Source: Euglena gracilis
Lineage: Eukaryota
DNA length: 59,846 nucleotides
Assembly: GCA_039621445.1 (NCBI GenBank)
Contig: CP154954.1
Span: forward strand, 6,173,693-6,233,538
Direction of reading: 5' to 3'
The notes beneath the pieces were generated by a model that made no database searches, had not been told where the DNA came from, and saw only the letters and a list, made by a program, of their open reading frames with translations. The position numbers and the translations under genes were made by a program. This document shows positions 49,101-52,100 of the stretch, piece after piece (positions within the stretch are counted from its first letter, which is position 1; every line of letters starts with the position of its first letter).

Positions 49101-52100
49101 TGCAAAAAAATGCAAAAAAAAATGCAAAAAAATCCAAACATATGACAACCAACTACAAAATTTTTTTCCAGGGCAAAATATTTTATGCAAAAAATGCAAG
49201 AATATGCAAAAAAATCCAAACATATGGCAACCAACTACAAAAATTTTTTCCAGGGCAAAATATTTTATGCAAAAAAAAAAAAAAAAAAAAAATGCAAATT
49301 TCGGGAAAAGCCGATTATGCAAAAAAAATGAAAATTATGCAAGTTGCATTTTTCCCCCCCCCTGCCTAATTGTGCGCAGTGCCCTAATAACTGCGCACCC
49401 CCCAAGGGTCTGAAACTACCTCCCTAAAAAGTGCGCACCCCCCAAAGGAGAAATCATTGTCGCATCTCAGGCCGGAAAGCACACACAATTCTCAGAATTG
49501 TCCTTCTCAGATCAAACATTTCCATCGTCCAAGCCCAAATTTGACACATTTGACACATAATCACTTGACTCATAGCTTGAAATCACAAAATTGGGGGGGG
49601 GGAAAGAGTGGGGGTAACGTCAGTACTTTTGGCTTTGCCCTAAAAAGTGCACACTGCCCTAATAAGTGCGCACCCCTTGGGGTCCAAAACTACGTCCTTA
49701 AAATGTGCGCACCCGTGCACTTATTAGGGGGGGGGGGGTTACAGGAATTGCAACACCTGGAGAGATTTTGTCCAAATACTTTTTAAACCGTCAAAGTCCC
49801 CCGGCTACATGGAGCTTAAACCAGCGACTTTCCTCCAGACAGCTTTCTCCTTCCTCGCTCCTTCATCCTGTTTCGTTTGGGCACAGTCAAACACCTTAAA
49901 TTTTCCTGGCTACACCTGCAGAAACCGAAAAACCATGCTTTAAAATTATTGATCATTTTAGGTTGAATTAGTTTGAGTTACCAAATAAACCCCCCAAATA
50001 TAAAACCCCCCCGGTGTTACATTTGGGCGGAAATTTCAAGACCCCCACGGGGGGTATATTTGGGGGGGCTGTTTCAAAAACGGGGGGAAGACAAACTTCT
50101 GGCGACTTTCTGTCCTTTTTCTTATGTCCCTCGTAGCCCTTTTGTGTTGCTTCCAATGGAAGAATACCTGTCAGAGACTCCCCTGATGTCTCAATTTCGG
50201 TCGTTTTGAGCGCCGAGGCCACTGAATCAGCAGCATCCGAGGAGTCAGAGGTGATGCATCCGAGGAGTCAGGAGGTGATGGATCTGAAGCTGATATTTTA
50301 TATTTGGGGTTTTTTATATTTGGTCACCAAATCAAATGCCCCAGGGGGGTTTCATATTGGGGGGGGGGGTTGTATTTGGGGGAGGTTATTATATTTGGGG
50401 GGGGGTTACCTCTGTTTCATGGTGAGGACCCCAAATTCTGAGTTGTGCTTTTTCGTGATCTGTCGTAATTTTCTTGCATCTTTCGTGATTTTTGTGCTTC
50501 TTGATCGTTGGGCGGAGGGCTGGTCGGAAGAGTCTGTGTTTGCCTGAAAAGATATCCTCCTAGGATGTTGATCAACTCCAACGTTTTCAATAAAAATTGT
50601 CCAAGGAAATTTTCAGCAAAAATAAAATCAATTTAATGATAATAATTTCGTATTAAAAAAAAAATGCAAAGGTGCCTCGTCTTTAAAACTAACTTTCCCC
50701 TCTTGCCCAACCTCGTCTTTAAAACTAACTTTCCCCTCTTGCCCAATATGCAGTCACTTGGCCAGAACGTTCCATTGCTTCCCAGTTGTGACACTCATTA
50801 CATCCACAGTGTAGAGCGCCTCCCCCAACTGAGGGGTGGCGAAATCGAGCCAATGATTGCGGAAGACAGCCACAGAGGTCGTTGCGAACTGCAACCCGAA
50901 CAGAGCTTCGACATTCTACAACAATATGGCAAGGCAGGAAGAACTTTCAACTTTTTTTCCCTACCAACTGAGAATTGTTGGGGAATTTCTACAAAACTGA
51001 GATACGATGATTCGACAACACTTGCTTCAATGGCATCTAAACATGCTATGCAACTTTTAGAAATTCACACTGGGCACCTCCACAGGCAATCATGACACTG
51101 GAGGACCAACCTCTGGCTGTGGAGCAGGCCATCCTCGGGCAAGGTCCAGCCCATGCTTGTGCTTACCGACCAGGGGGGAGGGGGGTGGGTGGGTGCTATA
51201 GGGTGCCTGCCCCTAGCAGGCACACCCCGGGGGGGGTCCGGGGGGACCCAGAAAATTTTCATTGAAATGGCCTTTTCCGGGCCCCCGGCGCCTTTGGCGC
51301 TGGGGTCGGAGGGGGGTGCCTGCTATGGGCAGGCACCCCCCCAAAAACCTTCCCCCCTGGGGGGGTCAGATCGGGTGCTATGGGGTGCCTGCCCCTAGCA
51401 CCCCCCCCCTCGTGGGGTAGGCACCCGACTAAGCACAAGCCTGGTCCAGCCATACATGTAATCGAAAGCACCCGTCCTTGACATCTCCCAGAACGCCCAA
51501 ATGGACCGGTCGTACAGGGCCCCCGTGGTTCTGTACGGGCTCCTTTTTGCTCCATTTTTTTTAACAACGAGCCAAAGGTTGCGATTTTTGAATTGAAAAA
51601 GAAGCCGGGTCGCGTTCTTGTATATCATGGACAAGCCATAACCATTGAGAGAGTTGTTCGCCTTCACCGCAGGGACCCAGAAACTGGACTCCTCGCAACT
51701 TTTGAAGGAAAACCTTCCTTTGAAGAAAAGCATTCCTTTCCTCCTTGTGACGTCAAACGTTTTCCTTTTTCATTTTTTTATTTTCCAATTATCATTCATT
51801 ACGTTCCTTTTCTTTTGCACAGAGCATTTCTTCGACACTCGCCACGTCGCCAAGTCAAAAAAAAATACTGTAGAGCAGGCGAGGGAGGTCCTGGGACCAC
51901 CTGACAGTTTTCGGACAAGATTCCTGAAACCCTTGGACAAAAATACTGTCACTTTTAGACAGAGATGTTAAAACTTCTGGCCAATTTGGAGAGACTTTTG
52001 GGCAGGTGTATTGTATTGAAACTTTTGCACGGGGACGTTGAAAGAACGCGGAAGTTGTACTCATGGAGTAAGGGTCCTTGAAACTTTTTCAACACCCTTG

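What the first reader, a model, noticed from the sequence alone, without database searches (positions are those of the whole stretch)
51144..51451. Young intron 2: a different MITE family with a perfect 8-bp TSD in the cyclase gene
Minus strand reads TAT GGC TG|gac CAGgcttgtgctta...taagcacaagcATG ggctg|G ACC TTG, giving YGWTL. The 14-bp TIR is unrelated to that of the 9805 element beyond CAG, so at least two families independently created introns with the same geometry.
Basis: seen in the sequence. Interest (0 to 1): 0.82.

Follow-up and report, generated by a model that had tools for sequence, protein, structure and literature searches.

The report
Transposon-born nonconventional intron in Euglena cyclase
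A 292-base miniature transposon with an intact 8-base target duplication sits inside a coding exon of a Euglena-type cyclase gene and is removed from the RNA as a nonconventional intron, a clean single-locus example for the long-suspected transposon origin of these introns.

Summary
A 292-bp element (51152-51443) has 14-nt inverted ends (13 of 14 complementary). It is flanked by a perfect 8-bp direct repeat (51144-51151 and 51444-51451). A ninth matching base is the element's own terminal G.

It interrupts a minus-strand gene of more than 24 introns (56202 to about 25192). That gene matches an 855-aa Euglena gracilis transcript protein carrying a PF00211 cyclase domain.

The homolog has one GWT where the window has two, so 300 nt (element plus one repeat copy) must be removed. 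A spliced RNA contig that matches the flanking exons exactly leaves 258 nt between its anchors. This equals the model with 300 nt removed. The junction itself was not displayed to me.

The cut register is N3-CAG ... ATG-N5, then a purine. This is the published euglenid nonconventional-intron geometry with one deviation (ATG, not CTG).

The element is highly repeated. Its summed k-mer depth is about 5,000 times that of its flanks, and RNA reads from other copies end at the same terminus.

The class, the MITE hypothesis (2014) and an 8-nt repeat in a recent intron (2016) are in print. This is a new member of a known kind. "Young" is relative, and "unrelated families" is overstated.

The parts
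51152..51443 (-). 292-bp non-autonomous element (MITE-like). G/C-run rich, with three internal copies of a ~28-nt palindromic subrepeat and a central GGCGCC..GGCGC core.
   Evidence: (subrepeat families D1-D3)
51430..51443 (-). 5' terminal inverted repeat as read in the RNA (CAGGCTTGTGCTTA). CAG occupies intron positions +4 to +6.
51152..51165 (-). 3' terminal inverted repeat (TAAGCACAAGCATG in the RNA). ATG occupies positions -8 to -6, where the published consensus is CTG, giving one G.A mismatch in the stem.
51444..51451 (-). Upstream copy of the 8-bp target-site duplication (GGCTGGAC on the minus strand). Its first 5 nt stay in the mRNA and its last 3 nt form the N3 spacer of the intron.
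51144..51151 (-). Downstream copy of the 8-bp target-site duplication. Its first 5 nt form the N5 spacer of the intron and its last 3 nt start the next exon.
51147..51446 (-). Inferred nonconventional intron, 300 nt (element plus 8). It can slide over 10 equivalent positions; this is the one in the N3/N5 register.
   Evidence: RNA contig arithmetic
51447..51529 (-). Upstream exon (83 nt in the code register), ending in ..YGW(T).
51119..51146 (-). Downstream 28-nt exon between two nonconventional introns.
51530..51610 (-). Neighbouring 81-nt nonconventional intron (ACC-CGG ... CCG-N6, then A).
50868..51118 (-). Neighbouring 251-nt nonconventional intron (AGC-CAG ... CTG-TGGCT, then G).
25192..56202 (-). 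Host gene: adenylate/guanylate-cyclase-family homolog. At least 25 exons were mapped by homology; the catalytic domain maps to about 35277-31330.
12121..12430 (+). Full-length diverged relative of the element (65% identity over 320 columns). Termini are CAGGCTGTTTTTTA and CAGGCTTGTATTTTA; the TSD is no longer recognisable (3 of 8 on my reading of the alignment).

Best explanation
A short non-autonomous DNA transposon inserted into a coding exon of a euglenid cyclase gene. It is 292 bp long, has CAG...(C/A)TG-terminated 14-nt inverted ends, and made an 8-bp staggered target cut.

In the pre-mRNA the two inverted ends pair into a terminal stem. The euglenid nonconventional splicing machinery (unknown, possibly not the spliceosome) cuts 3 nt upstream of the 5' CAG and 5 nt downstream of the 3' trinucleotide. 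Because 3 + 5 = 8 equals the target duplication, the RNA loses exactly the element plus one duplicate (300 nt). The original reading frame (..Y G W T L..) is restored without a scar.

Shown:
- The anatomy: TSD, TIR and register.
- The host gene identity by homology.
- The single GWT in the homolog.
- The terminal stem.
- Repetitiveness, with a shared terminus in other transcribed copies.
- A spliced transcript whose length fits removal of 300 nt.

Inferred:
- The exact junction, because the contig's internal sequence was not displayed.
- Transposition as the insertion mechanism.
- The link between the cut register and the TSD length.
- Relative youth.
For: Anatomy:
- Perfect 8-bp TSD and 13/14 TIR.
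- Far beyond chance: 2 real cases against 0 in 60 shuffles.

Host gene:
- The flanking ORF hits P0001, an 855-aa protein labelled by its source as an E. gracilis transcript.
- P0001 has PF00211 at residues 476-643, E 1.9e-25.
- tblastn places P0001 on the minus strand from 56202 to about 25192. P0001 residues 103-155 align to window 51682-51443, and residues 153-164 (GWTFPQDGLLHA) align to window 51151-51116 (GWTLPEDGLLHS). The homolog therefore has one GWT.

RNA:
- Contig record 9 of run X15 (1383 nt, depth 125) matches four exons with 0 differences. It leaves 258 nt between window 52650 and 48315.
- The model with introns of 81, 300 and 251 nt gives exactly 258 nt and has no stop. It aligns gaplessly to P0001 residues 72-239, with 106 of 168 identical.
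- In stranded run X24, first mates lie on the + strand over exon bins, which fits a minus-strand RNA.

Register:
- The intron reads GAC-CAG ... ATG-GGCTG, then G. The genetically defined code is 5'-N3CDG-/-CH'GN5-6|R (PMC12501133 sections 8 and 11).
- The fold puts the two arms in a terminal stem. MFE is -193.2 kcal/mol, z = -6.08, and 0 of 100 shuffles folded as well.

Family:
- Summed k-mer depth over the element in DNA run X1 is about 727,000. The unique flanks show about 115-200. The tool warns this is not a copy number.
- 32 RNA reads align to the element's end and then run into heterogeneous sequence exactly at 51443/51444. That is 7+12 reads in X21 and 8+5 in X24.
- A full-length 65%-identical relative lies at 12121-12430.
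- Three other TIR-bounded elements in the window also have perfect 8-bp repeats: 7056-7936, 9797-10094 and 45600-46022.

Relative youth:
- This is the only one of 24 mapped introns with an 8/8 TSD. The other 23 average 3.13/8 in register, against 1.7-2.5 out of register.
- Only two substitutions were listed where most family depth differs from this copy, at 51172 and 51368. One minority 1-base insertion was also listed at 51264. That table was truncated and covers only contigs at least 95% alike.
Against: - The junction was not read directly. The joints table was truncated by depth, and the contig pieces under about 98 nt were not shown.
- Homology scoring plus the 258-nt constraint does not by itself exclude a 294-nt removal at this site paired with a 257-nt neighbouring intron. 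The summed scores are 438 and 439. Only the splicing-code register separates them.
- The 3' trinucleotide is ATG, not CH'G. In Nomura et al. every single-base change tested inside CAG or CTG of their test intron abolished splicing. By the strict code this intron should splice poorly.
- No other copy with both termini and its own TSD could be retrieved, because no genome is held and the metagenome scans gave only chance hits. Family membership therefore rests on depth, loose read ends and one diverged copy.
- There are no presence/absence data. In DNA run X1 the site is filled at full single-copy depth (unitigs 50717-51176 and 51423-52193).
Confidence: 0.8

Rival explanations
1. The 8-bp repeat marks intron gain by double-strand-break repair (filled-in staggered break or microhomology) that captured a piece of repetitive DNA. 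Milanowski et al. 2016 proposed this for a recently gained gapC intron that has 8-nt direct repeats. On this view no transposase-mediated insertion took place.
For: PMC4770533 (passages read) reports an 8-nt direct repeat at a strain-specific nonconventional intron and suggests break repair. No transposase with matching ends was found in the window. Pfam gave 0 hits in the 88 ORFs of at least 110 aa from the first 24 kb and 0 hits in the 110 minus-strand ORFs of at least 45 aa from 44-59 kb. The rest of the window was not scanned.
Against: - The inserted unit runs exactly from one inverted end to the other.
- RNA reads from other copies stop at the same terminal base, 51443/51444.
- Three more TIR-bounded units in the same 60 kb each carry a different perfect 8-bp repeat. 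A fixed staggered cut by one enzyme type predicts this; random break repair does not.
Confidence: 0.07
2. The intron is an old, fixed nonconventional intron. The perfect repeat and near-perfect stem persist by chance or by selection (coding constraint on the exonic halves, splicing constraint on the stem), not because the insertion is recent.
For: - Five of the 8 TSD positions on the upstream side and three on the downstream side are exonic, so they are constrained.
- The stem is needed for splicing (PMC12501133).
- The site is filled at full depth in the one DNA run laid.
- The family also has an old copy at 65% identity.
Against: - The intronic partners of the TSD (3 + 5 nt) are spacers of arbitrary sequence in the published code, yet all 8 still match.
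- The other 23 introns of the same gene retain on average 3.13 of 8 and at most 11 of 14 TIR matches.
- The body of the element, which is not in the stem, differs by substitution from the bulk of the laid family depth at only two listed positions.
Confidence: 0.08
3. The element is removed by the conventional spliceosome as a 285-nt GC...AG intron (51440 to 51156). This leaves 15 extra in-frame bases and duplicates GWT in the protein.
For: A GC dinucleotide follows ACCAG at the 5' side and an AG precedes CATGG at the 3' side. 285 is a multiple of 3.
Against: - It would make the mRNA stretch 273 nt, not the 258 nt seen in the RNA contig, unless 15 nt are lost elsewhere.
- The junction score falls from 81 to 73, and compensating deletions cost more. 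The best total is about 419 against 439.
- The homolog has no duplication.
- None of the best-scoring boundary sets for the 24 introns in this gene has GT/GC-AG ends.
Confidence: 0.02
4. The insertion is not spliced at this locus. It disrupts the gene (a pseudogene or null allele), and the spliced contig comes from an identical uninterrupted copy elsewhere.
For: The 3' motif ATG breaks the published code. Read through, the element has an in-frame stop: the ORF ends at 51398. The junction sequence itself was not shown to me.
Against: - The RNA contig matches four exons of this locus with 0 differences over 483 nt.
- No empty-site joint or unitig was listed in DNA run X1, and the filled-site unitigs have normal single-copy depth.
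- Exon bins next to the element are expressed at the same level as the other exons in X24.
Confidence: 0.03

Closest known systems
Euglenid nonconventional (NC) introns: Milanowski et al. 2014 and 2016; Nomura et al. 2025 splicing code 5'-N3CDG-/-CH'GN5-6|R
   Same: - No GT/GC-AG at any of the 10 slidable positions.
- CAG at +4 to +6.
- TG at -7 and -6.
- A 3-nt and a 5-nt spacer.
- A purine starts the next exon.
- A terminal stem brings the ends together.
- A direct repeat makes the border slidable.
- The host is a euglenid-type gene in which none of 24 mapped introns looks conventional.
   Different: - The 3' trinucleotide is ATG, not CH'G (one base off the code).
- The repeat is a full, perfect 8 bp.
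- The intron body belongs to a highly repeated family.
- In the papers read, the transposon origin is still called a hypothesis or 'unclear'.
gapC intron 4 of Euglena agilis strain ACOI 323 (Milanowski et al. 2016, PMC4770533; passages read)
   Same: A nonconventional intron judged recent, with eight-nucleotide direct repeats at the junctions that are longer than in other introns.
   Different: That case has presence/absence evidence between strains but no reported repeat family, and the authors read the repeat as a sign of break repair. Here there is family and TIR evidence but no presence/absence evidence.
Introner elements of Micromonas, Aureococcus and dinoflagellates; noncanonical introners of Amoebophrya and Fritillaria (as summarised in PMC11282704; passages read)
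   Same: MITE-like elements with TIRs and TSDs that become introns on insertion into exons, in many copies.
   Different: Most of those use spliceosomal GT/GC-AG sites supplied by the element or its TSD, and have 3-5-nt TSDs. Here the borders are noncanonical, the TSD is 8 bp, and the cut sites are set by distance from the stem.
hAT-superfamily MITEs (8-bp TSD, short TIRs starting CAG/TAG; recalled, not from a call)
   Same: The 8-bp TSD. The TIRs begin with CAG. Other elements and introns in the window begin CAGAG or CAGGG.
   Different: No transposase was seen. The recalled terminal motif YARNG is not fully met by CAGGC/CATGC. Other superfamilies also make 8-bp TSDs. This is a lead, not a membership.

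Membership tests
Euglenid nonconventional intron | Borders lack GT/GC-AG (and AT-AC) | tested here: met
   All 10 equivalent 300-nt positions were read. None starts GT/GC and ends AG. In the N3/N5 register the intron starts GA and ends TG.
Euglenid nonconventional intron | Intron ends pair into a stable stem that brings the exons together | tested here: met
   14-nt arms with 13 Watson-Crick pairs. The MFE fold has the terminal stem: -193.2 kcal/mol, z -6.08.
Euglenid nonconventional intron | Removed from the mature mRNA | tested here: met
   A spliced RNA contig leaves 258 nt between its anchors. This equals the model without the 300 nt; retention would give 558 nt. The junction bases themselves were not displayed.
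Euglenid nonconventional intron | Excised as a full-length circular RNA, after the conventional introns (as stated in PMC11282704) | not testable with these tools
Code-conforming NC intron (5'-N3CDG-/-CH'GN5-6|R; Nomura et al. 2025) | N3 spacer then CDG at the 5' end | tested here: met
   GAC then CAG.
Code-conforming NC intron (5'-N3CDG-/-CH'GN5-6|R; Nomura et al. 2025) | CH'G, complementary to CDG, then N5-6 at the 3' end | tested here: not met
   ATG-GGCTG. T and G are present and the spacer is 5 nt, but the first base is A, not C. The code covers 61.2% of E. agilis NC introns, so this excludes the strict subset, not the class.
Code-conforming NC intron (5'-N3CDG-/-CH'GN5-6|R; Nomura et al. 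2025) | A purine starts the acceptor-side exon | tested here: met
   G at 51146.
MITE (non-autonomous DNA transposon) | Terminal inverted repeats directly flanked by a target-site duplication | tested here: met
   13/14 TIR and 8/8 TSD. 0 of 60 shuffles gave such a pair.
MITE (non-autonomous DNA transposon) | Short and without coding capacity | tested here: met
   292 bp of G/C runs and palindromic subrepeats. No Rfam family reached its gathering score: best 24.2 bits against 80.
MITE (non-autonomous DNA transposon) | Many copies sharing the same ends | tested here: inconclusive
   Summed k-mer depth is about 5,000 times that of the flanks. 32 RNA reads from other copies end at 51443/51444. 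One diverged full-length copy lies in the window. No second copy with both ends and its own TSD could be fetched.
MITE (non-autonomous DNA transposon) | Mobility: empty sites, or an autonomous partner with the same ends | not tested
   No genome is held. Only one DNA run was laid, and there the site is filled.
hAT superfamily | 8-bp TSD | tested here: met
   Three other elements in the window also have 8-bp TSDs.
hAT superfamily | hAT transposase, and the terminal motif recalled as YARNG | not testable with these tools
   No transposase domain appeared in the 198 ORFs scanned. The motif is recalled from memory. CAGGC/CATGC fits it only in part.
Spliceosomal introner elements | The element or its TSD supplies GT/GC-AG sites used by the spliceosome | tested here: not met
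   The only GC...AG pair gives a 285-nt intron, which disagrees with the 258-nt RNA stretch and with the homolog.

The most novel reading that the evidence does not exclude
Euglenid nonconventional splicing acts as an RNA-level eraser matched to one transposon type. Its fixed cut distances (3 nt before the 5' CAG, 5 nt after the 3' CTG) add up to the 8-bp target duplication of a still-active, hAT-like MITE superfamily. Any new insertion into an exon, in either orientation and any frame, is therefore born as a scarlessly removed intron. On this reading most of the several hundred thousand nonconventional introns of Euglena are decayed copies of such elements. This copy also shows that a long perfect stem can compensate for a broken CTG. 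In the papers I read (passages and sections only), neither the 3 + 5 = 8 match nor a repeat-family assignment of an NC intron is stated.
Probability: 0.45. Interest if true: 0.75.

Novelty: new member of a known kind. Interest (0 to 1): 0.52.

Why it matters
The origin of euglenid nonconventional introns has been open since the 1990s. [quoted passage not shown] A MITE origin was proposed in 2014 and was still called unclear in 2025.

This locus shows all the transposon hallmarks at once on an intron that is spliced: intact 8-bp TSD, TIRs, a repeated family, and a terminus shared with other copies. It also suggests why the splicing register is 3 + 5 nt.

That turns the hypothesis into a simple genome-wide test: cluster intron termini, measure TSD length and decay, and look for the autonomous partner. 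It also offers a natural test case for the published splicing code, because the motif is ATG rather than CTG.

As a single locus it is an illustration, not a proof.

Tried and rejected
- **Whole-genome search for other copies.** No genome is held for this window.
- **Earlier notes of this scan.** Nothing by place, sequence or words.
- **Pfam on ORFs.**
  - 110 minus-strand ORFs of at least 45 aa from 44-59 kb gave 0 hits. This covers the N-terminal, non-catalytic part of the gene, so it was uninformative.
  - The 88 ORFs of at least 110 aa from 1-24 kb gave 0 hits. No transposase and no neighbouring gene were identified.
  - Of 5 single exon pieces from the catalytic and adjacent region, only 1 gave a sub-threshold PF00211 hit (E 0.0044, 17.1 bits against a 21.9 cutoff).
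- **Metagenome scans.** The 20-nt terminus gave 0 matches. An 18-nt internal motif gave 5 loci. All were 18-21-nt chance matches in contigs of 61-65% GC.
- **Same-species protein to read the junction.**
  - With 'longer' lengths, only the E. gracilis homolog was found.
  - With 'near' lengths, nothing was found.
- **Checking that the 9805 element lies in a coding exon.** Its 60-aa upstream flank found no relative in either protein search. Its intron status is unverified.
- **RNA runs.** No listed holder was on record as RNA. The run X15, guessed to be RNA, proved to hold a spliced contig. The joints and pieces tables were truncated, so the junction was not seen, and no second lay was possible.
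- **Rfam.** No family reached its threshold.
- **Plasmid collection.** No match.
- **Dinoflagellate or Amoebophrya introner.** This was my first guess. I dropped it after the homolog pointed to Euglena.
- **Small genome inferred from depth.** Rejected. The 'million letters' of the older runs are contig letters.
- **A first, slower shuffle script timed out.** It was rerun in lighter form.
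Full report
**1. The observation**

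On the + strand, GGTCCAGCC occurs at 51143-51151 and again at 51443-51451. The repeat is perfect, with spacing 300. Just inside lie inverted arms at 51151-51165 and 51430-51444, 15 nt and 93% complementary (sequence read).

The most economical parse is an 8-bp target-site duplication (TSD) around a 292-bp element.
- TSD copies: 51144-51151 and 51444-51451.
- Element: 51152-51443.
- Terminal inverted repeats (TIRs): 14 nt, matching at 13 of 14.

The ninth repeated base is the element's own terminal G, which happens to match a flank G.

The 11-nt TIR core occurs exactly only at the two arms. With up to one mismatch there are 5 hits against 0.70 expected, and 0 of 100 shuffles reached 5.

I scanned the whole window for a perfect 8-bp repeat directly flanking at least 13 of 14 inverted ends, with a low-complexity filter. 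It found 2 cases: this one and 45600-46022. None appeared in 60 shuffles. At the 12-of-14 level there were 4 real cases against a shuffle mean of 0.017. The two extra cases lie in a CA/TG-rich simple repeat near 25.6 kb and are not elements.

**2. The host gene**

Pfam found nothing in 110 minus-strand ORFs between 44 and 59 kb.

The ORF upstream of the element (51443-51769, minus strand) found one relative, P0001. It has 855 aa, and its source labels it as an E. gracilis transcript. Pfam places PF00211, the adenylate and guanylate cyclase catalytic domain, at residues 476-643 with E 1.9e-25.

tblastn of P0001 against the window gave a colinear chain of 25 exon-sized matches on the minus strand. 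They run from 56202 down to about 25192, with 37-93% identity per match. So "cyclase gene" holds by homology.

The element lies at about residue 155, far upstream of the catalytic domain.

The organism is a euglenid. The species was not determined, and no identical protein is in the protein collection.

**3. What the homolog says about the junction**

P0001 residues 103-155 align to window 51682-51443. The window has a 27-residue extra block there, which is a separate 81-nt intron. P0001 residues 153-164 (GWTFPQDGLLHA) align to window 51151-51116 (GWTLPEDGLLHS).

The homolog has one GWT where the window DNA has two, one in each repeat copy. Restoring the protein therefore needs removal of 300 nt.

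**4. RNA evidence**

One search for sequencing runs and one lay were allowed.

Run X15 was only guessed to be RNA. It holds a 1383-nt contig (record 9, depth 125) that matches four exons with 0 differences:
- 46387-46495
- 48168-48315
- 52650-52747
- 54154-54281

So the contig is a spliced transcript of this locus.

Between its anchors at 52650 and 48315 the contig has 258 nt. The pieces that lie there were not displayed, because only the longest pieces are shown.

A gene model guided by P0001 places four exons in that interval, of 67, 83, 28 and 78 nt, plus 2 nt of the next exon. They are separated by introns of 81, 300, 251 and 2472 nt. The model properties are:
- The exons sum to exactly 258 nt.
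- The model has no stop.
- It aligns to P0001 residues 72-239 without a gap, with 106 of 168 identical.

Retention of the element would give 558 nt.

Two limits apply.
- The junction bases were not seen. The joints table was cut off by depth and lists only DNA-run rows.
- Homology score plus the 258-nt constraint cannot exclude a 294-nt removal here paired with a 257-nt neighbouring intron. The summed scores are 438 and 439.

The 285-nt GC...AG alternative scores much lower, about 419.

In stranded run X24 the first mates lie on the + strand over exon bins. For example, bin 51614-52014 has depth 1.01 against 0. This fits a minus-strand RNA.

**5. What class of intron this is**

Euglenids have nonconventional (NC) introns. 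These lack GT-AG borders, have ends that pair into a stem, and often carry direct repeats at the junctions.

The papers place CAG at +4 to +6 and CTG at -8 to -6 (PMC11282704 passages; PMC3935182 passages; PMC12501133 section 5).

Nomura et al. 2025 defined the requirement genetically as 5'-N3CDG-/-CH'GN5-6|R. [quoted passage not shown]

In that register this intron reads GAC-CAG ... ATG-GGCTG, then G.
- The N3 spacer, CAG, the N5 spacer and the purine all fit.
- The 3' trinucleotide is ATG, not CTG, which puts a G.A mismatch at the third pair of the stem.

In their test intron every single-base change tested within CAG or CTG abolished splicing (section 7). This copy is therefore outside the strict code yet appears to be spliced. 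Eleven uninterrupted pairs follow the mismatch.

RNA folding places the arms in a terminal stem. MFE is -193.2 kcal/mol, z is -6.08, and 0 of 100 shuffles folded as well.

The two neighbouring introns fit the same code:
- ACC-CGG ... CCG-N6, then A.
- AGC-CAG ... CTG-N5, then G.

None of the best-scoring boundary sets for the 24 mapped introns has GT/GC-AG ends. These boundaries are homology-guided and can be off by a few bases.

Twelve of the 24 introns have CA at both element ends in the N3/N5 register within 9 nt of the inferred border. Eight of those need no shift at all.

**6. Evidence that it is a transposon**

(a) The unit runs exactly from TIR to TIR with a perfect 8-bp TSD.

(b) Three other TIR-bounded units in the window each carry a different perfect 8-bp repeat. 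The first two are dropped by the complexity filter.
- 7056-7936: repeat CTCACCCC, TIR 13/14.
- 9797-10094: repeat ATCACATC, TIR 12/14.
- 45600-46022: repeat CCCCGGGT, TIR 13/14, nested inside the 1037-nt intron 9.

(c) In DNA run X1 the summed k-mer depth over the element's bin is about 727,000. Unique neighbouring stretches show about 115-200. The tool warns that this is not a copy number, so I read it only as "highly repeated".

(d) 32 RNA reads align to the element's end and then continue into heterogeneous sequence at 51443 or 51444. That is 7+12 reads in X21 and 8+5 in X24, with agreement of the continuations 0.44-0.61. Other transcribed copies therefore share this exact terminus.

(e) A full-length relative lies at 12121-12430, at 65% identity over 320 columns (E 2e-27). 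It has related termini and subterminal sequence. On my reading of the alignment, its flanking repeat is no longer recognisable.

Copies elsewhere could not be retrieved. No genome is held, and two metagenome scans gave 0 hits and 5 chance hits.

**7. Is it young, and are the families independent?**

Within this gene it is the only intron with an 8/8 TSD. The other 23 introns average 3.13 of 8 in register and 1.7-2.5 out of register. TSD identity served as a tie-breaker when the register was chosen, which gives a small bias.

The next best TIRs in the gene reach 11 of 14.

Among the laid DNA contigs (at least 95% alike), most depth differs from this copy by substitution at only two listed positions, 51172 and 51368. 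One minority 1-base insertion was also listed at 51264. That table was truncated.

All this fits a recent insertion from a recently expanded family. There is no date and no empty site. In X1 the site is filled at normal single-copy depth (unitigs 50717-51176 and 51423-52193).

The claim that the TIR is unrelated to that of the 9805 element is too strong.
- Both TIRs share CA(G) and TTA at positions 12-14, as do the other two elements.
- The 9805 element shares the central GGCGCCTT(C/T)GGCGC core and the order of G and C runs.

Whether the 9805 element is an intron could not be checked. The point that different TIR sequences use one geometry is nevertheless carried by the other introns of the cyclase gene.

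**8. Mechanism proposed**

The transposon inserts with an 8-bp staggered cut. In the pre-mRNA the TIRs pair. The NC machinery cuts 3 nt before the 5' CAG and 5 nt after the 3' trinucleotide.

Because 3 + 5 = 8, the element and one TSD copy leave together and the exon is restored. Because the termini are palindromic (CAG...CTG), the same holds in either orientation.

The anatomy and the register are shown. The link between register and TSD length is my inference.

I did not find that link in the passages and sections I read of PMC3935182, PMC4770533, PMC11282704, PMC12501133, PMC11170887 and PMC12621601. Three literature searches did not surface a paper making it. I opened no supplements.

Milanowski et al. 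2016 did report an 8-nt direct repeat in a strain-specific gapC intron, and read it as possible break repair.

The hAT assignment rests on the 8-bp TSD and on recalled TIR motifs. It is a lead only.

**9. Verdict**

The finding is real and well read. It is a clear member of a known class, the euglenid nonconventional intron. It carries unusually complete transposon hallmarks, and so supports a published but unproven origin hypothesis.

It is not a new kind of system. Its value is as a seed for a genome-wide test and as a natural exception to the published splicing code.

Noticed in passing
window 45600-46022: Another MITE-like element with a perfect 8-bp repeat (CCCCGGGT) and a 13/14 TIR (CAGGCCATTGCTTA/..CTCA). 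Its TIR matches this element's at 11 of 14 positions. It is nested inside the 1037-nt intron 9 of the cyclase gene, not forming an intron by itself. No internal similarity to the 51152 element was found.
   Followed up: partly
window 7056-7936: An 865-bp unit with a perfect 8-bp repeat (CTCACCCC) and a 13/14 TIR (CATACATCTCT(T/C)TA). The host gene is unknown.
   Followed up: no
window 9797-10094: The '9805 element'. It has an 8-bp TSD (ATCACATC) that extends to 11 nt through matches with the element's own ends, and a 12/14 TIR. A minus-strand ORF is continuous after removal of element plus 8 nt in the same N3/N5 register. No homolog was found for the flank, so the coding status is unverified.
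   Followed up: partly
window 25192-56202, minus strand: None of the best-scoring boundary sets for the 24 homology-mapped introns of the cyclase gene has GT/GC-AG ends. Twelve have CA at both ends in the N3/N5 register, and five of these start CAGGC at both ends. Flank identity in register averages 3.13 of 8 against about 2 out of register, as expected for decayed 8-bp TSDs.
   Followed up: partly
window 51119-51146: A 28-nt exon squeezed between two nonconventional introns (300 nt and 251 nt).
   Followed up: partly
window 51530-51610: An 81-nt nonconventional intron that uses the CGG...CCG derivative motif with a 6-nt acceptor spacer. Both variants are reported as functional by Nomura et al. 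2025.
   Followed up: partly
window 48807-49400: An A-rich, low-complexity repeated stretch with the highest summed depth of the laid region (about 1.2 million in X1). Reads appear cut at 49260-49302.
   Followed up: no
window 54383-54425: A short repeated segment. RNA reads have loose ends before 54382/54384 and behind 54425, and the right-hand continuation is conserved (agreement 0.91-0.92). One DNA contig joins 51443 directly to 54383. This may be the end of another repeat family.
   Followed up: no
window 51201-51228, 51314-51341, 51383-51410 and 12362-12392, 19392-19419: A ~28-nt palindromic subrepeat (GGGTGCCTGC...GCAGGCACCCC) occurs three times inside the element and again in related copies elsewhere in the window.
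   Followed up: no
window 19300-19457: A partial copy related to the element (about 69% identity over 166 columns), on the opposite strand.
   Followed up: no
window 59008-59840: A run of 833 N near the end of the window.
   Followed up: no
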